A stretch of DNA of 56,762 nt, the filler included, from an uncultured virus (IMG/VR IMGVR_UViG_2049941000_000078) (lineage: Duplodnaviria > Heunggongvirae > Uroviricota > Caudoviricetes). It is 17 parts of one record of this genome, joined end to end, with 100 filler letters (N's around TTAATTAATTAA, not from the genome) between each part and the next. Parts side by side here need not be neighbours in the genome. Positions count along the whole stretch, not along the records: positions 16,237 to 19,800 come from IMGVR_UViG_2049941000_000078; positions 19,901 to 23,177 come from IMGVR_UViG_2049941000_000078; 15 more parts are not named here. One strand, given 5' to 3'. Position 1 is the first letter of the stretch. Each line of letters starts with the position of its first letter. Below are positions 18,447 through 30,321 of the stretch, piece after piece. Under the pieces are notes generated by a model, which was given only the letters and a program-made list of their open reading frames with translations, searched no databases and was not told the origin of the DNA. The position numbers and the translations under genes were made by a program.

Positions 18447-18806
18447 ATGGCAAGCATCAGTATTCCTTGGCGAGACGGACCTGGCAACATTGTCCTGACC
18501 TACACGGGTCAGGGCAATGGCACGGTCGTAGTCACCTCGGACGCTGATAATCTCGACGGCAGGTTGCGCCAGCAGACGGTGACGTTTGTAGTGACCGACG
18601 GAGCCATCCGCAATGAGGTGACAACGGCCAGCAGCCACTTGATCCGTACATCCGACGGCAACACGGTGCGCTCGCTCGACAATACGATGAAGGTTACGGT
18701 GACGGTCATCCAGCAGAAGTCATCGCTGAAGGTGGTGCTGACCGCCAGCGACCATCTCGTTTGCACCGCTTCTGGAAATATCGTAAGATGCAATACTCCT
18801 AATTAA
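18447..18806 (+). CDS. Virion accessory protein with two short internal repeats
   Basis: TASSHLIRTSDGNTVR / TASDHLVCTASGNIVR. Confidence 0.55.
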   Translation: MASISIPWRDGPGNIVLTYTGQGNGTVVVTSDADNLDGRLRQQTVTFVVTDGAIRNEVTTASSHLIRTSDGNTVRSLDNTMKVTVTVIQQKSSLKVVLTASDHLVCTASGNIVRCNTPN

Positions 18807-19241: not shown

Positions 19242-19800
19242 ATGGCAAATGGAATTTTTGACATCAGTCAGAGTGATGCCCAACTTCAGGCCATCCTCAA
19301 CAAGATTCAGCCCCTCGCCACTACTGGCGACATGGCCACATTAGGCTTCGGCTACGGTGTCTGCTCTACCGCAGGCTCAACCGCAGCCAAGACGGTGAGC
19401 ATCACCAACACCGTATNNNNNNNNNNNNNNNNNNNNNNNNNNNNNNNNNNNNNNNNNNNNNNNNNNNNNNNCTGGCGGCATTATCGCCGTCCTCTTCCAG
19501 AATGCTTTCACAGCTTCGAGTCCGACACTGAGTGTCAATGGATCAGCAGCAAAGCCAATCAAGTTGTTTGGAAATGCAATGCCGATGGGTAAGGTGAAGA
19601 ACAACACTATTCTCGTTATGAACTACGACGGCACAAACTTTAATGTGATTGCCATCGAATCACAGGTGGCAGCAGCACCAGACGGTGCCGTTGACCTTGC
19701 TCTGCCTTCCGGCGTGCTGTGGGCCGACAAGAACATCGGTGCCACTACACCCTACGAGGACGGTCTGTATTTCTCATGGGGTAATATTACCGGCCATACG
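19242..19800 (+). CDS. Tail-fibre-like protein, putative DGR target (gapped, C-terminus missing)
   Basis: YGVCSTAGSTAAKTV tail-fibre motif; VDLALPSGVLWADKNIGA..G.YFSWG, the N-terminal motif of C-type-lectin-fold domains in Bacteroidetes DGR targets. Confidence 0.75.
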
Positions 19801-19909
19801 NNNNNNNNNNNNNNNNNNNNNNNNNNNNNNNNNNNNNNNNNNNNTTAATTAATTAANNNNNNNNNNNNNNNNNNNNNNNNNNNNNNNNNNNNNNNNNNNN
19901 GAAACGAAT

Positions 19910-20416
19910 ATGGCAACTATCAAAGGACAGAACCTCCGTGTGTTTATGGAGAATGGCTCCGGCCATTACTCCGTGATAGCGGCTGCACAGCAGTGCGACC
20001 TGTCGCTCCGTCTGAATGTGAAGACATCATCGACAAAAGATGACACTGATGATTGGAACGTGGCGACAGTTGTAAACCTGACGTGGGAGATCAGGACACA
20101 GGGTCTCGTGGCCATAGACCCAGAGCGCAACGACACAGCATCACTGCTTGATCGTGTCGGTCAGACGGTGCGCGTAGAACTTGCGACTGCCAGCGGTGAG
20201 CAGAATAGTGATGTCGGCGAGATGATGTTGGCTGGAGATGCCATCATCAGCGACATATCCATCAATGCTCAGGTTGACGAGGAATCGACTTACAACGTGA
20301 CATTGACAGGCAAAAAGAACATGCTCACCGACATCCGCCTGATTATGACCAGCGACCAGCACTATGTCCGCACCACCGACGGCAACCTCGTGGCCGCAGA
20401 GCACGAGGAAATTTAA
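19910..20416 (+). CDS. Tail tube protein paralog with C-terminal extension
   Basis: MATIKGQNLR, SSTKDD...W. Confidence 0.7.
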   Translation: MATIKGQNLRVFMENGSGHYSVIAAAQQCDLSLRLNVKTSSTKDDTDDWNVATVVNLTWEIRTQGLVAIDPERNDTASLLDRVGQTVRVELATASGEQNSDVGEMMLAGDAIISDISINAQVDEESTYNVTLTGKKNMLTDIRLIMTSDQHYVRTTDGNLVAAEHEEI

Positions 20417-20432
20417 CAAGCAANNNNNNNNN

Positions 20433-20865
20433 NCTGACACTTGAAAAGGATAGAAAAGAACCTACATCATGGAATGTGATTCACATGTTCAAGGAGGGCT
20501 CTTTCTGGCACGCTTACGAATGGAGCGCATGGATCATTTGTGCCATCACCTATAATAACGAGAAGCACAAGCGCGACAAAGATACTGAACCTATCGCCGT
20601 AGTCCACAAACCGCTCGGAGGCAAGAAGCAGACAGGTTCATACGCAATGGTCGGCTTTCAGATGCGCTCGCTCGATAAGTATATCCCAAATCGTGTCAAT
20701 ATTGAGACCATCGAAGACAAGCAGATGGACATCACCATCGAACTGCCAAAACCAACCGACGGCTCGGAGATAACCTATGAACGTCTGCAAAAGGCATTCG
20801 AGACGTGGAAGGCCGCTCAACCTCTCAGCAAGAAAGATGATGATGATGACAATGCGCCACAGAAG
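20433..20865 (+). CDS. DGR accessory protein, MutS domain I-like (N-terminal fragment)
   Basis: IHMFKEGSFWHAYEWSA resembles MutS-I LFFRVGDFYELFFEDA; lies beside TR and RT. Confidence 0.65.
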
Positions 20866-20875
20866 NNNNNNNNNN

Positions 20876-21013
20876 CACGGCTCCAACGGGAACTACTGGT
20901 CAAGCTCTCTCAATTCATCAACCAACGGCTACAACCTGAACTTCAATTCAACAGGTGTAAATCCAGCCAACAACAACAATCGCTTCAACGGATTTACTGT
21001 TCGGGCTGTCCAG
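20876..21013 (+). ncRNA. DGR template repeat, 3' part
   Basis: 13 in-frame AAC/AAT codons; translates HGSNGNYWSSSLNSSTNGYNLNFNSTGVNPANNNNRFNGFTVRAVQ (YWSS...R..G..VR.V lectin motif). Confidence 0.88.
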
Positions 21014-21064
21014 CACTCATCAGCGATTTTCGGGCGAGCCTTTTACTTTTCAAGNNNNNNNNNN

Positions 21065-21163
21065 TTAGCGTGGCCATTAGAGCAGAATTCGCCCATCGAG
21101 ACCATCAACTTCGTGGCAGAACTGAAAAAGGAACTGACAATGATATTCATGCAAAGCAAATAA
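21065..21163 (+). CDS. DGR accessory protein, C-terminal fragment
   Basis: LAWPLEQNSPIETINFVAELKKEL..stop, directly upstream of the TR spacer. Confidence 0.55.
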   Translation, partial: LAWPLEQNSPIETINFVAELKKELTMIFMQSK

Positions 21164-21318
21164 TAAAAGGCTCCCAGAACTTCAAGACGAGTTCATAGGT
21201 TGTCCGTCCTTCGGAGGCCGCAAGGCCGAAGCGGGAAAAAGAAAAGATGATCGACGGCTTCCACATCAGGACTCCATCGCATACATCGTAACAGGTGGCA
21301 ACCGATAGAAGATACAGG

Positions 21319-21370
21319 ATTTTCTTCCCCGCCGCTGGCAACAGGAACGGGACTGGGCTCAACAACCACG
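21319..21370 (+). ncRNA. DGR template repeat, 5' part
   Basis: IFFPAAGNRNGTGLNNH; terminal CACG matches the CACGG start of fragment 20876. Confidence 0.85.
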
Positions 21371-21382
21371 NNNNNNNNNNTA

Positions 21383-22540
21383 TTCATTGCCTATGAAGAC
21401 GCTGCACGCCATAAACACAAGATGTCATACGTGCAGAAATATGAGAAACACCTGAATCAGAATATCGAAGCACTTTGCGATGAATTATTAGAACGCCGGT
21501 ATGTGGCGCAGCCATCTCATTGCTTCGTCATCGAATACCCTAAGAAGCGCGAAGTGTTTGCGGCGCTGTTCAAAGACCGCATCGTGCATCACCTGTATTT
21601 CAACTATACGCACGAAATATTTGAGCGCACATTCATCGCTGATTCCTATTCGTGCATCAAAGGACGTGGAACACATTATGGCATCAACCGACTTGCGCAA
21701 CATATCCGCCAGGAGAGCGACAATTGGCAGCGACGGTGCTATGCCATGAATCTCGACATACGCGGCTATTTCATGCACATCAATCGAAAGCGTCTGTTGG
21801 AAATATCCATTGACACACTGAACAAGATGGCCACGCACAAGGTATCAGCACATTCTTCAGAGACGTGGGCCGACGTGCGAGATATGGACTTCCTGAAATG
21901 GCTGACCGAACAGATAGTGATGCTCGATCCTAAGACTTCATGCGTTATCGTTGGTGACAAGTCGGATTGGGACGGATTGGACCGCAACAAATCGCTCTTC
22001 TGGACTGATGAAGGCTGTGGCCTGCCAATCGGAAACCTGACATCGCAACTATTCAGCAACGTGTATCTGAACGAGTTCGACCAATTCATGAAGCGCGAAC
22101 TTGGCTGCAAGCATTATGGCCGATACGTTGACGACTCGTTTGTGGTTTCATGCGACCGACAATGGATGCTGTCATTGGTGCCGGCTATTGATGAATTTCT
22201 GCAAAATCGGTTAGGACTGAAATTGCATCGAGGAAAGACGCATGTGGTTGACGTTCGCCAAGGTATCGAGTTTCTTGGTGCATTCATCAAACCATATCGC
22301 ATCTATATCTCAAATAAGACCGTGGCGAGAATGCGCCAGACATTGCGCGACCTGAATACACGCGACAAGATACACACGTCATTTTCAGTAAACTCATATC
22401 TCGGCGTGCTGTCTCATTCGTCATCTTTCAATCTGCGCAAGCGGATATTCCTCAATGACAAGGTGGCTCGCGTCGTTGAGTTTGATGATGACCTTTTGAA
22501 AAGTAAACCCAAGACCATGAAAGGCACGATAAGAAAATGA
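21383..22540 (+). CDS. DGR reverse transcriptase (5' end in gap)
   Basis: PKKREVFA, FKDRIVHH, DIRGYF, GLPIGNLTSQ (DGR-type SQ motif), RYVDD, FLG; frame open from 21383. Confidence 0.95.
   Translation, partial: FIAYEDAARHKHKMSYVQKYEKHLNQNIEALCDELLERRYVAQPSHCFVIEYPKKREVFAALFKDRIVHHLYFNYTHEIFERTFIADSYSCIKGRGTHYGINRLAQHIRQESDNWQRRCYAMNLDIRGYFMHINRKRLLEISIDTLNKMATHKVSAHSSETWADVRDMDFLKWLTEQIVMLDPKTSCVIVGDKSDWDGLDRNKSLFWTDEGCGLPIGNLTSQLFSNVYLNEFDQFMKRELGCKHYGRYVDDSFVVSCDRQWMLSLVPAIDEFLQNRLGLKLHRGKTHVVDVRQGIEFLGAFIKPYRIYISNKTVARMRQTLRDLNTRDKIHTSFSVNSYLGVLSHSSSFNLRKRIFLNDKVARVVEFDDDLLKSKPKTMKGTIRK
22503..22533 (+). promoter_or_regulatory. Bipartite GTAAACC motif
   Basis: GTAAACC-N17-CGATAAG within the RT 3' end; another copy at 23114-23144. 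Confidence 0.6.
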
Positions 22541-22562
22541 TAATTTTAAAAACTACAAAGTT

Positions 22563-23117
22563 ATGGTAAACAAGTATTCAGGAAATGTGAGCGACTTTCA
22601 GCCGGTGGTTGAGGACGCATCAAGAGTGGTAATCAGTTACGGCCTCACAGAGATGGGTGACGGAAAGGCCGAGTGGTTCGAGGTAGTGTTCTACAAGAAG
22701 CAGACCGCCAAGCCTACTATCGAGCAGGTGAAGAAAGCCGTGCTCGACGACATCAACAAGCAGACCGACGAGAAAATTCTCACCGGCTTCGTGTGGAACG
22801 ACATCCCCGTATGGCTTTCAGAAGAGAACCAGCGTAACTTCTCTGAGGCGCAGCGCATCGCCATGATTATGCCTGAAGCTATTCTGCCCGTGACATTCAA
22901 GCTGGGCGAGCAGGCCGACGAGACTCCCATCTATCATGAGTTCGAGACCAGTGAGGAACTGACCGGCTTCTACCTACAGGCCGTAGCCTTCATCAACCAG
23001 ACACTCGCCGAGGGTTGGCAGCGCAAGGACGGCATCGACTGGGCACCCTACGAGGCCGCACTGAATCCGCAGCCTGAGCAGACCGAAGGCACCAAGAAAT
23101 CTACGAAAAAAAAGTAA
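22563..23117 (+). CDS. Tail-associated hypothetical protein (DUF4376-like C-terminal half)
   Basis: ILTGFVWNDIPVWLSEENQRNF; follows the RT. Confidence 0.55.
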   Translation: MVNKYSGNVSDFQPVVEDASRVVISYGLTEMGDGKAEWFEVVFYKKQTAKPTIEQVKKAVLDDINKQTDEKILTGFVWNDIPVWLSEENQRNFSEAQRIAMIMPEAILPVTFKLGEQADETPIYHEFETSEELTGFYLQAVAFINQTLAEGWQRKDGIDWAPYEAALNPQPEQTEGTKKSTKKK

Positions 23118-23277
23118 ACCCACGACATGCTTACGCTCGATTGGTAGGAATATCAATCGGGCGTTTGTGCCCTAAATNNNNNNNNNNNNNNNNNNNNNNN
23201 NNNNNNNNNNNNNNNNNNNNNTTAATTAATTAANNNNNNNNNNNNNNNNNNNNNNNNNNNNNNNNNNNNNNNNNNNN

Positions 23278-24011
23278 ACCGCTATGCAGTGGAGTTTGTA
23301 GAGCACTACAAGAAGTTGGGCGTGTCAAAGATGTTTATCTACGACAACTATTTTGGTGACGAGGAGCCACTGGCCGTGACGCTGAAGAAATACGTCGATT
23401 CAGGATTCGTGGAAATAACCGACATTCCAAACAAAAAGGCCATGCAGTGCCGTGCGTATGAGCATTGTTACAAGTTGCACGGCAACGAGTATGCCTGGAT
23501 AGGCTTCTTGGATTTTGACGAGTATCTGCGTTGGAACTCGAAGAAGAAAATTGAGACCATGTTCCAACAGTACACAGGCGACTGCGTGCTGGTGAACTGG
23601 AGACTCTTCACCGACAACGGGCTGACTCACTACGACCCACGTCCGTTGAAGGAACGCTTCACGGAGGTGATGCCCATTGACAAGCATGTAAAATATGAAG
23701 ACCGCGAGGAGAACACCCACGTTAAGTGCTTCATCCGTGGAGGTCTTGGTGAGGTGCATTTCGGAAAGAACCCACACTCACCTATGAAGTCCGACAACCT
23801 CCGCTGCGTGAACACTGAGAACCAGCCAGTGTATTGCGGTGCCTTCGTCAGCCCGTTCACCCACAAGGTGATGCGCCTTGACCACTACTGGACAAAGACC
23901 GCCGAGGAGTGGATCGGCAACAAACTTACTCGTGGCTTCTGTAGCGGGAATACTTACATGGACAACTTCATCAAGGCACAGGAGCGGTACTTCTTCGCCG
24001 TCAACGAGCGC
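23278..24011 (+). CDS. Glycosyltransferase GT-A domain (GT92/GT2-like), fragment
   Basis: EFVEHYKKLGVSKMFIYDN, WIGFLDFDEY, LDHYWTKT. Confidence 0.85.
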
Positions 24012-24021
24012 NNNNNNNNNN

Positions 24022-24448
24022 CCTGCTTTTGGATTCTGACGTGCTCATCAAGCAGAGCGTTGACTTTATGTTCCAGGACTCGCAGGTGGCCGTCGGGCAC
24101 GTTCAGATGCCACAGCCTGGCAACAACTTCCATTTGGGCCGTCTGGTGCCGATGGTGTGCTATATCAACGTACCGTTGTGCCGCAAGTACGGGCTGACGT
24201 ACTTCGACCCAAAGCGTGCGTGGATGATCCATAGCATCGACCTGCAAGACAAGTGCAACTGGTATGACACCGGCGCATCGTTCTACGAGGATATTCACGC
24301 CAAGAAAAACGGATGCCGTGGCAAGCGTGTTGACATCCGTCCTCTCATGGAGCACTATAAGCGCGGATCATGGTGGGGCAACTGTAAGGGCGACCACCTG
24401 AAATGGATGGATCGACACAAGAATCTGTGGGAGCCAACACCATCCATG
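24022..24448 (+). CDS. Glycosyltransferase N-terminal GT-A domain, internal fragment
   Basis: LLDSDVL DxD motif, WYDTGA, HYKRGSW; second allele at 31105..31400. Confidence 0.65.
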
Positions 24449-29285: not shown

Positions 29286-30003
29286 NNNNNNNNNNNNNNN
29301 NNNNNNNNNNNNNNNNNNNNNNNNNNNNNNNNNNNNNNNNNNNNNNNNNNNNNNNNNNNNNNNNNNNNNNNNNNNNNNNNNNNNNNNNNNNNNNNNNNNN
29401 NNNNNNNNNNNNNNNNNNNNNNNNNNNNNNNNNNNNNNNNNNNNNNNNNNNNNNNNNNNNNNNNNNNNNNNNNNNNNNNNNNNNNNNNNNNNNNNNNNNN
29501 NNNNNNNNNNNNNNNNNNNNNNNNNNNNNNNNNNNNNNNNNNNNNNNNNNNNNNNNNNNNNNNNNNNNNNNNNNNNNNNNNNNNNNNNNNNNNNNNNNNN
29601 NNNNNNNNNNNNNNNNNNNNNNNNNNNNNNNNNNNNNNNNNNNNNNNNNNNNNNNNNNNNNNNNNNNNNNNNNNNNNNNNNNNNNNNNNNNNNNNNNNNN
29701 NNNNNNNNNNNNNNNNNNNNNNNNNNNNNNNNNNNNNNNNNNNNNNNNNNNNNNNNNNNNNNNNNNNNNNNNNNNNNNNNNNNNNNNNNNNNNNNNNNNN
29801 NNNNNNNNNNNNNNNNNNNNNNNNNNNNNNNNNNNNNNNNNNNNNNNNNNNNNNNNNNNNNNNNNNNNNNNNNNNNNNNNNNNNNNNNNNNNNNNNNNNN
29901 NNNNNNNNNNNNNNNNNNNNNNNNNNNNNNNNNNNNNNNNNNNNNNNNNNNNNNNNNNNNNNNNNNNNNNNNNNNNNNNNNNNNNNNNNNNNAGACAGGA
30001 ACT

Positions 30004-30321
30004 ATGAACCAGAAAAGACAAGTAGCAATCGTGCATTTCAACACGCCGGAGATGACGGAGGCGTGCATCTACTCCATCCGCAAGCACGGCGGCATGGACT
30101 ACCACATCACCGTCTTCGACAACAGCGACGAGCGACCATTCACGGCGAAGATGGATGGCGTGACCGTTATCGACAACACGAAGGGGCAAGTTATTGACTT
30201 CAATAAGGAGTTGTCGAAATATCCGAAGGCAAAGCATGGCGAAGTGAACAACTATGGCAGCGACCGCCACATGATGTCGGTGCAGAAGATGTGGGACATC
30301 ATTGATGAAGATTGCCAAGCG
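30004..30321 (+). CDS. Glycosyltransferase (GT2-like), N-terminal fragment
   Basis: AIVHFNTPEMTEACIYSI...ITVFDNSD. Confidence 0.7.

What the first reader, a model, noticed from the sequence alone, without database searches (positions are those of the whole stretch)
19242..22540. Diversity-generating retroelement acting on a tail-fibre-like gene
Seen: an RT with GNLTSQ and YVDD. An AAY-rich template repeat can be rebuilt by joining 21319-21370 to 20876-21013 through the CACG overlap, giving IFFPAAGNRNGTGLNNHGSNGNYWSSS..NRFNGFTVRAVQ with 17 Asn codons. A nearby gene carries the VDLALPSGVLWA..N.GA motif. Known: DGRs (Bordetella phage BPP-1 type) mutate adenines during TR-to-VR retrohoming to diversify C-type-lectin receptor-binding domains. 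Inference: true order is accessory gene, spacer, TR, RT, and the target's VR is missing because hypervariability broke the assembly after 19800. The VR itself is not visible.
Basis: partly seen in the sequence, partly recalled or inferred. Interest (0 to 1): 0.85.

Follow-up and report, generated by a model that had tools for sequence, protein, structure and literature searches.

The report
Avd-less phage DGR with RNA leader
This is a real targeted-mutation system in a cattle-gut phage that rewrites the tip of a surface protein; unusually, it lacks the helper protein the model system needs and instead carries a MutS-like gene and a conserved folded RNA in front of its template.

Summary
The DGR is real. 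The window is a scrambled multi-scaffold bin. In 28 gap-free related TR/VR pairs, 468 of 1283 adenines but 33 of 3828 other bases change.

The accessory gene is not Avd but Msl (MutS-domain-I-like). All 16 Msl DGRs of Wu et al. 2018 also carry avd. Here 0 of 40 related RT clusters do, nor do 4 near-complete phage records, while three sister RTs carry both. A covarying ~120-nt RNA (no Rfam match) precedes TR in 30 of 32 clade loci searched, and the post-TR spacer is short and unconserved.

Not shown: the link from the target's 5' part (a separate scaffold) to this VR, a tail-fibre role, and what Msl or the leader do. Avd supplied by the host is not excluded. The scan noted Msl before, with Avd; my searches found no Msl-only case.

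The parts
19242..19800 (+). 5' part of the probable target gene (N-terminal helix and beta domain, start of a DUF1566/CLec2-type domain). On a separate scaffold, with a 55-N gap at 19417-19471.
   Evidence: 91% identical to the L022 target over both fragments. Full-length relatives end in a VR. Lcl_C hit in 7 of 16 alignment rows, best E 1.2e-7, below cut-off for the row shown. Only target-gene fragment in the window.
19801..19900 (.). Artificial scaffold linker (N44-TTAATTAATTAA-N44), one of 16 in the window
19910..20416 (+). Tail tube gene, misplaced in the scaffold; it really follows 23177
   Evidence: Pfam Phage_tail_2. Joint 23177->19901 in runs X1, X2 and X6; 20423 continues into the piece at 29993.
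20434..20865 (+). Msl (MutS-like) accessory gene, 5' part. Its start and the VR lie upstream in sequence absent from the window.
   Evidence: Joint 21013->20434 with 115 letters between (VR copy to msl) in 4 of 4 runs. Pfam MutS_I sub-threshold in 10 of 17 rows. Foldseek top hits are MutS. hhalign 97.7% to the Msl of an Msl+Avd DGR.
21065..21163 (+). Msl 3' end (conserved C-terminal helical hairpin)
   Evidence: Joint 20865->21065 with 63 in-frame letters between; alignments A1 and A6
21180..21311 (+). Conserved structured RNA leader upstream of TR: closing helix, two inner stems, an A-rich linker
   Evidence: Covariation in A4: 18 of 27 pairs change on both sides, 91% of cells paired versus 35-56% when slid. 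Model R1 hits 30 of 32 clade loci. No Rfam match.
21319..21370 (+). Template repeat, 5' piece (last 4 letters overlap 20876-20879)
20876..21013 (+). Template repeat, 3' piece, ending in the IMH*-type end
   Evidence: Laid with 0 differences as TR and 13 (X1) or 14 (X6) as VR
21014..21054 (+). Short post-TR spacer (44 nt to the RT start codon, counting 3 gap letters)
   Evidence: Joint 21054->21381 with 37 letters between. Column conservation falls to mostly 0.3-0.5 beyond about 8 nt past TR in 22 relatives.
21381..22540 (+). DGR reverse transcriptase (start codon in the gap before 21381)
22563..23117 (+). DUF4376 gene: a phage structural-module gene flanking the cassette, not a DGR part
   Evidence: Pfam. 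Follows the target and its hairpin directly in the DGR-less relative L032.

Best explanation
A functional diversity-generating retroelement in a tailed phage of gut Bacteroidales, with the layout target(VR)-hairpin-msl-RNA leader-TR-RT, inserted between the head-completion gene and DUF4376/tail tube. The RT copies the TR RNA with errors at adenines, and the cDNA replaces the VR at the 3' end of a virion-associated C-type-lectin-like adhesin. SHOWN: the layout, the TR/VR pair, adenine-specific differences (fully in relatives, partly in the element itself), Msl identity, no avd in cis, and a covarying leader. INFERRED: the lineage lost avd from an Msl+Avd ancestor and works without it. My preferred mechanism (about 0.45 on its own): the folded 5' leader takes over the RT-scaffolding and stop role that Avd and the long 3' spacer play in BPP-1, while Msl, which keeps the MutS Phe but not the Glu of the recalled Phe-X-Glu motif, binds the mismatched cDNA:VR heteroduplex at the integration step. 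The confidence given is for the DGR and its Msl-only layout.
For:: one 2550-nt contig of X1 carries VR-msl-TR-RT in order. X6, an independent study, has a VR with 14 differences while its TR piece has 1 in 179; it shares one printed change (20924) but not the other two. All 5 printed VR differences are at TR adenines (20912, 20924, 20959, plus 20885 and 20891 in an X5 loose end). Relatives: 573 of 621 mismatches are at TR adenines in 32 pairs; 468/1283 A versus 33/3828 non-A in the 28 gap-free pairs, p 1e-265, though pairs are related. Avd: PF22296 in 0 of 12 virus records, 4 of them at least 90% complete; NF033474 0 of 5; positive controls Bacuni F1 and G007 were found. Gaps between VR, msl, TR and RT are at most 267 nt in the 19 Msl-only loci of 20 measured, too short for Avd. 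Tree: the 41 rows with no avd seen form one side of a branch (SH-aLRT 84), with Msl+Avd Bacteroidales RTs next to them. Wu et al. PMC5758913: all 16 MSL rows of Table S1 list AVD.
Against: About 10 of X1's 13 VR differences and most of X6's 14 were not printed, so adenine specificity of this element rests on 5 positions. X2's VR piece is listed with 0 differences; depths suggest each record is tallied once per place, but that is my inference. X1 and X2 may be the source sample. The target 5' part was never laid onto the VR, the bin mixes related phages, and the closest RT relative (L130, 79%) has a different target N-terminus. MutS similarity is weak by every single test (Pfam best E 0.005, Foldseek E 0.025, VIA Z 4.2). 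Clade support of 84 is unstarred and comes from a quick tree. The leader is not found in 2 of 4 Msl-only cassettes from the genome sweep (L237, L249) and has a weak partial hit in one Msl+Avd cassette (L238, 17.8 bits, E 0.008). The window's leader alone is not unusually stable (z -1.1). No function of Msl or the leader was tested.
Confidence: 0.87

Rival explanations
1. Msl replaces Avd directly as the RT cofactor: it oligomerises through its C-terminal helical hairpin, binds the leader RNA and is needed for cDNA synthesis itself.
For: msl sits where avd sits in BPP-1 and Bacuni F1, between VR and TR. It is kept in 37 of 40 clusters; the other 3 are two short contigs and one decayed remnant. 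The C-terminal hairpin is conserved.
Against: The same two-part Msl occurs beside Avd in sister DGRs, so it has a role apart from Avd's. Its pI is 5-9, mostly acidic to neutral, unlike the basic Avd proteins (mean 9.5 in PMC5758913).
Confidence: 0.25
2. The cassette is not Avd-independent but borrows Avd, or an Avd-fold protein, in trans from a host DGR.
For: Msl+Avd cassettes exist in likely hosts: 8 of 14 Msl matches in 401 Bacteroidales-order genomes had avd adjacent. Host genomes carry Avd-fold IVP proteins (L129).
Against: Those cassettes were seen in only 8 of 401 genomes, yet VRs are diversified across the clade. The post-TR spacer, which binds Avd in BPP-1 (10.1101/2023.10.23.563531, sections 10-11), is short and unconserved here. 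The host MAG G006 showed only an IVP-type hit away from its DGR.
Confidence: 0.2
3. The DGR is real, but 19242-19800 belongs to a co-binned sibling phage, and the cassette's own target has another N-terminus.
For: Separate scaffolds; several terminase, portal, protease and tail tube copies in the bin; L130's target differs at the N-terminus.
Against: One RT and one target fragment in the window. Synteny of head-completion gene, target, msl, TR and RT in relatives such as L022 and L035. X5 and X6 loose ends before 21318 encode the residues that precede the VR in this target family.
Confidence: 0.18
4. Not a DGR: a retron, group II intron or decayed RT next to an Asn-rich repeat joined by chance.
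For: The best NCBIfam name is group II RT/maturase (111.6 bits). My tree had no intron or retron outgroup.
Against: That score is far below the cut-off of 300, and the retron and DRT models are also below theirs. The TR join is a real joint, a VR exists, and mismatches are adenine-specific.
Confidence: 0.02

Closest known systems
Architecture D (MSL-containing) CLec2/DUF1566 DGRs of Bacteroidetes, e.g. TG-MSL-AVD-TR-RT in Bacteroides thetaiotaomicron VPI-5482 and Prevotella sp. oral taxon 306 (Wu et al. 2018, PMC5758913, Table S1); Msl-bearing pilus DGRs of 10.1101/2024.11.15.621889
   Same: Related RT (46-50% to Msl+Avd sisters L049, L050, L166), homologous Msl over its full length, DUF1566-type C-terminal VR, TR of about 185 nt, same gene order apart from avd.
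   Different: No avd. A covarying leader lies between msl and TR. Phage-borne, with the target among virion genes; none of the 16 MSL rows of Table S1 is labelled phage in the source column.
Bordetella phage BPP-1 DGR (mtd/VR-avd-TR-brt)
   Same: Phage DGR, target-accessory-TR-RT order, adenine-specific TR-to-VR changes, hairpin after VR in relatives.
   Different: RT 28% identical. Msl instead of Avd. The conserved RNA lies upstream of TR, whereas the BPP-1 spacer with Avd-binding, priming and stop elements lies downstream; model R1 finds nothing in BPP-1.
Bacuni phage DGRs of Bacteroides uniformis (PMC8143477)
   Same: Bacteroidales siphophage DGR with DUF1566/Fib_succ_major targets; the best cultured-phage RT match (36-37.5%).
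   Different: Bacuni has Avd and no Msl. Msl had no tblastn match among 50,697 GenBank phage records.
Avd-less DGRs of Wu et al. (Lineage 3; Architectures A and E/CH1)
   Same: No avd; Avd-independent retrohoming was already proposed there.
   Different: Those have no accessory gene or have CH1, which occurs only without MSL. I did not compare sequences with Lineage 3 RTs.

Membership tests
Diversity-generating retroelement | Intact RT with DGR-type motifs | tested here: met
   GNLTSQ and YVDD, RVT_1, PHROG 1423 E 9e-83; group II, retron and DRT models all below cut-off
Diversity-generating retroelement | RT branches within DGR RTs, apart from intron and retron RTs | tested here: inconclusive
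   Nested among RTs with proven TR/VR pairs, but no non-DGR outgroup was included
Diversity-generating retroelement | TR and VR pair | tested here: met
   One contig of X1 and one of X2 carry both copies; X6 carries a VR contig
Diversity-generating retroelement | Differences confined to TR adenines | tested here: met
   Own element: 5 of 5 printed differences, most not printed. Relatives: 573 of 621 mismatches and 468/1283 versus 33/3828.
Diversity-generating retroelement | VR at the 3' end of a protein-coding target | tested here: met
   Relatives; target-type coding sequence precedes the VR in X5 and X6 loose ends.
Diversity-generating retroelement | IMH and a GC-rich hairpin after VR | tested here: inconclusive
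   A long hairpin folds after the stop codon in 20 of 20 relatives, without a shuffle control. The element's own 115 letters were not printed.
Diversity-generating retroelement | Ongoing mutagenic retrohoming | not testable with these tools
   Only contigs were served. VRs differ between X1 and X6 while TR is nearly constant, which is suggestive.
BPP-1-type (avd-TR-RT) DGR | avd gene in the cassette | tested here: not met
   with positive controls
MSL accessory protein (Wu et al. 2018) | Small (112-283 aa), near-neutral, MutS domain I-like | tested here: met
   185-217 aa in alignment A1, pI 5-9. Weak but concordant MutS_I evidence. Full-length homology to the L050 Msl.
Architecture D DGR (Wu et al. 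2018) | MSL always accompanied by avd | tested here: not met
   0 of 37 Msl-bearing clusters at 53% RT identity or more have avd
CLec2/DUF1566 target | C-type lectin fold in the VR domain | tested here: inconclusive
   Lcl_C in 7 of 16 rows, best E 1.2e-7. Model pLDDT 53 and poor over the VR domain; no PDB sequence hit.
Phage tail fibre | Tail-fibre fold and attachment to the baseplate | tested here: inconclusive
   Weak Foldseek matches to a phage baseplate/tail-fibre entry (E 0.003), a capsid spike (E 0.015) and tailspike N-termini; no PHROG hit

The most novel reading that the evidence does not exclude
A lineage of gut-phage DGRs runs mutagenic retrohoming with no Avd at all. A previously undescribed structured RNA upstream of the template replaces the Avd-bound downstream spacer as RT scaffold and stop signal, and Msl is the only accessory protein. 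That would be a minimal, mechanistically distinct DGR in which the role of Msl can be isolated.
Probability: 0.4. Interest if true: 0.75.

Novelty: new variant of a known kind. Interest (0 to 1): 0.5.

Why it matters
As a phage DGR it is ordinary. The lineage is useful for two open points. The function of Msl was not tested in any passage I read, and every catalogued Msl DGR also has Avd, which hides Msl's role; here Msl stands alone. Avd is needed in reconstituted BPP-1 (PMC12875486, passage seen), and how Avd-less DGRs work is unexplained; this clade offers a short cassette, many natural variants and a covarying RNA to dissect. A compact Avd-free DGR could also simplify DGR-based directed evolution.

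Tried and rejected
No VR or second target in the window: non-A-weighted scan and profile search.

Accessory as Avd: rejected. The one weak Avd hit in host MAG G006 is a 23S IVP-type protein away from the DGR.

Msl C-terminal hairpin as the MutS tetramerisation domain, an idea from recalled resemblance: no support from PDB or Pfam; unproven.

Conserved pairing between the leader and the TR end or spacer (a priming or stop duplex): whole-region duplex energies were mostly near shuffled values in 32 loci, and no register paired fully in more than 9 of 22 loci. Not found.

Rfam: 0 hits at gathering score in 8 loci and 0 at E<=5 for 20400-21700. No sigma-70-type promoter in 21065-21370.

The target model was too poor to name a fold. 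PDB sequence searches gave only chance hits or none. The careful tree did not finish; a quick tree is reported. RT-Msl binding could not be modelled. The L050 RT found no viral relatives.

Literature: 7 searches found no Msl-only DGR or this leader. The library lacks most subscription papers, and bioRxiv supplements, such as the DGR tables of 10.1101/2024.11.15.621889, were closed and could hold such cases.
Full report
WHAT THE WINDOW IS. The record is 17 scaffolds joined by 16 identical 100-nt linkers, with many 10-N gaps inside. A PHROG scan of 74 selected ORFs shows terminase, portal, protease, capsid, tail tube, endolysin and methyltransferase genes, several of them more than once, so it is a bin of related tailed phages. 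The best-holding runs are labelled bovine gut metagenome. The closest cellular RT matches are in Bacteroidales MAGs, so the host is probably a gut Bacteroidales (inference). The finding spans a linker at 19801-19900.

OBSERVATION. The RT motifs, the two TR pieces, 17 Asn codons and the target motif are all present. The TR is the most Asn-rich stretch among 16,282 windows tested. No VR is in the window.

TRUE ORDER. Contigs of 4 runs were laid on 19901-23177. One 2550-nt contig of X1, a possible source sample, reads: a VR copy (13 differences over 20876-21013), 115 letters, 20434-20865, 63 letters, 21065-21366, then 20876-21054 with no difference through a 4-letter overlap, 37 letters holding the RT start, and 21381 onward. 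A further joint links 23177 to 19901. X5 and X6, from other studies, show the VR-to-msl, TR and TR-to-RT joints. X6's VR has 14 differences, while its TR piece has 1 in 179. Five VR differences are printed and all are at TR adenines; the rest are hidden among 132 unprinted rows. X2's VR piece is listed with 0 differences; depths indicate that one piece per record is tallied at a place, which would explain it, but I could not check. Loose ends before 21318 in X5 and X6 encode the residues that precede the VR in this target family.

RELATIVES. Viral, genome and metagenome scans gave 203 RT loci with long matches. Those at 42% identity or more formed 44 clusters at 95% identity, 40 of them at 53% or more. 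Of these 40, 32 show a TR/VR pair, 37 have msl and 0 have avd. The 3 without msl are two short contigs and a decayed remnant. Mismatches fall at TR adenines in 573 of 621 cases; pairs were accepted at 75% or more adenine mismatches, so that figure is partly by selection. In the 28 gap-free pairs (4 with indels dropped), 468 of 1283 adenines and 33 of 3828 other bases changed. Of 26 target-bearing viral loci, 7 end 232-343 nt past the point matching 19800, in or just before the VR, and 4 end earlier, so this region often breaks assemblies. L032 has target and hairpin followed directly by DUF4376, and L042 has an internal deletion from msl to the RT end, so the cassette is a module that is gained or lost.

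ACCESSORY GENE. It is Msl. Pfam MutS_I is sub-threshold in 10 of 17 rows. The model of the L014 protein (pLDDT 83) has MutS chains as the top 5 Foldseek hits (best E 0.025), and MSH2, MSH3 and Taq MutS at ranks 1, 2 and 4 by VIA (Z 4.2, rmsd 3.8, 88 aligned). Each test is weak, but they agree. The profile aligns over 162 columns (97.7%) with the Msl of L050, a pilus-type DGR in which a Pfam-positive avd follows msl. The Phe that matches the MutS wedge is nearly invariant; the Glu two residues on is replaced (the MutS motif is recalled).

NO AVD. Pfam bAvd found nothing in 12 virus records, 4 of them at least 90% complete, and did find Bacuni F1 and G007. The intergenic gaps are too short for avd. 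In a quick IQ-TREE tree of 61 RTs, the 41 rows of this clade are one side of a branch with support 84, and Msl+Avd Bacteroidales RTs lie next to them, which suggests loss of avd (inference; root at midpoint, long branches present). In a sweep of 401 genomes of the same order, 14 Msl matches split into 8 with avd, 4 cassettes without, and 2 truncated remnants.

LEADER RNA. The msl-TR interval is conserved in sequence and structure. On the unfitted 13-row alignment, 18 of 27 pairs change on both sides and 91% of cells pair, against 35-56% for slid partners; the closing helix is 98% paired. The structure was derived from these sequences, which favours it. Model R1 hit 30 of 45 sources: 30 of 32 clade loci and 0 of 13 others, including L049, L050, L166, Bacuni F1, BPP-1 and 4 distant Avd-only loci; a few hits are the training sequences or near-copies. 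In 302 genome searches it hit 6 places, 5 of them between msl and TR without avd and one with no DGR gene nearby. It missed 2 Msl-only cassettes and weakly hit one Msl+Avd cassette, so it is typical of the Avd-less clade but may not be exclusive to it. Downstream of TR, conservation fades after about 8 nt. In BPP-1 the downstream spacer carries the Avd-binding loop, the primer and the stop element (10.1101/2023.10.23.563531; abstract and sections 7, 10, 11 read). I found no conserved leader-to-spacer duplex.

TARGET. Relatives such as L022 are about 310 aa, with an N-terminal helix, a beta domain and a DUF1566-like C-terminal domain ending in the VR. The gene lies between the head-completion gene and the cassette, in the virion module. 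Fold matches point weakly to phage tail-fibre, spike and tailspike parts. A receptor-binding virion protein is likely; tail fibre is not shown.

MECHANISM. Shown: layout, TR/VR pair, adenine bias, Msl, lack of avd in cis, covarying leader. From established DGR biology: error-prone reverse transcription of TR RNA and replacement of VR. Inferred: Avd-free operation with the leader as RT scaffold and stop signal and Msl acting on the mismatched heteroduplex (about 0.45); Msl as RT cofactor (0.25); host Avd in trans (0.2).

COMPARISON AND NOVELTY. Wu et al. (PMC5758913; passages of the main text and all 16 MSL rows of Table S1 seen) defined MSL, stated that MSL DGRs also contain avd, and noted Avd-less lineages. 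The Bacteroides preprint 10.1101/2024.11.15.621889 (passages) reports Msl together with Avd. Bacuni phages (PMC8143477, passages) have Avd. Passages of PMC5737381, PMC8144416, PMC12875486, PMC10053308, 10.64898/2026.07.21.739853 and 10.64898/2026.09.22.753630 describe neither an Msl-only DGR nor this leader. Seven searches found none, within the library's limits. Earlier scan notes recorded Msl with, fused to, or apart from Avd, and leaders in CPR DGRs, but none of those shown was an Msl-only cassette. Verdict: a genuine DGR and a new variant of a known kind; interest 0.5.

Noticed in passing
window 1-56762: A bin of at least two related phages: repeated terminase, portal, protease and capsid pieces, four tail-tube-like ORFs (19910, 33060, 33706, 38949) and several DNA methyltransferases.
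   Followed up: partly
window 18447-18806 and 19910-20416: A short motif of the form T(A/S)S(D/S)HL(V/I)xTxxGN recurs in the 18447 gene and at the end of the tail tube gene; also in L022. Possibly a shared decoration or docking peptide.
   Followed up: no
window 23289-24448 and 29993-30321; L022 10340-12052: ORFs that look by eye like glycosyltransferases sit among the virion genes; the 29993 piece directly follows the tail tube gene. No PHROG hit; no Pfam test.
   Followed up: no
L032 880-1150; L042 1440-2100; L047 4300-5885: An empty site (target and hairpin then DUF4376), an internal deletion from msl to the RT end, and a decayed remnant with TR and truncated RT.
   Followed up: partly
L046 10570-10761: A second, remote target diversified by the same TR (22 of 23 mismatches at TR adenines).
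   Followed up: partly
L009 5503-7059; L046 4545-6215; L231 37-1611; L238 2391-3428: The TR reading frame runs without a stop into the RT frame in these loci.
   Followed up: no
L009 1272-4850; L011 326-3409; L130 1230-2810; L004 3338-4054: Target N-termini are swapped freely (238 to 1192 aa) in front of the same VR-bearing domain.
   Followed up: partly
window 1153, 23113, 25831, 28237, 51446, 53089; and 13, 1340, 6562, 49561, 50674: A recurring AGTAAACCC element before genes and a GAACACGAATTACACGAAT repeat family (D9, D10, D13, D15); possible phage promoter or operator motifs.
   Followed up: no
L233 1501-1611: A weak leader-RNA hit (26 bits) with no DGR gene within 1.5 kb.
   Followed up: no
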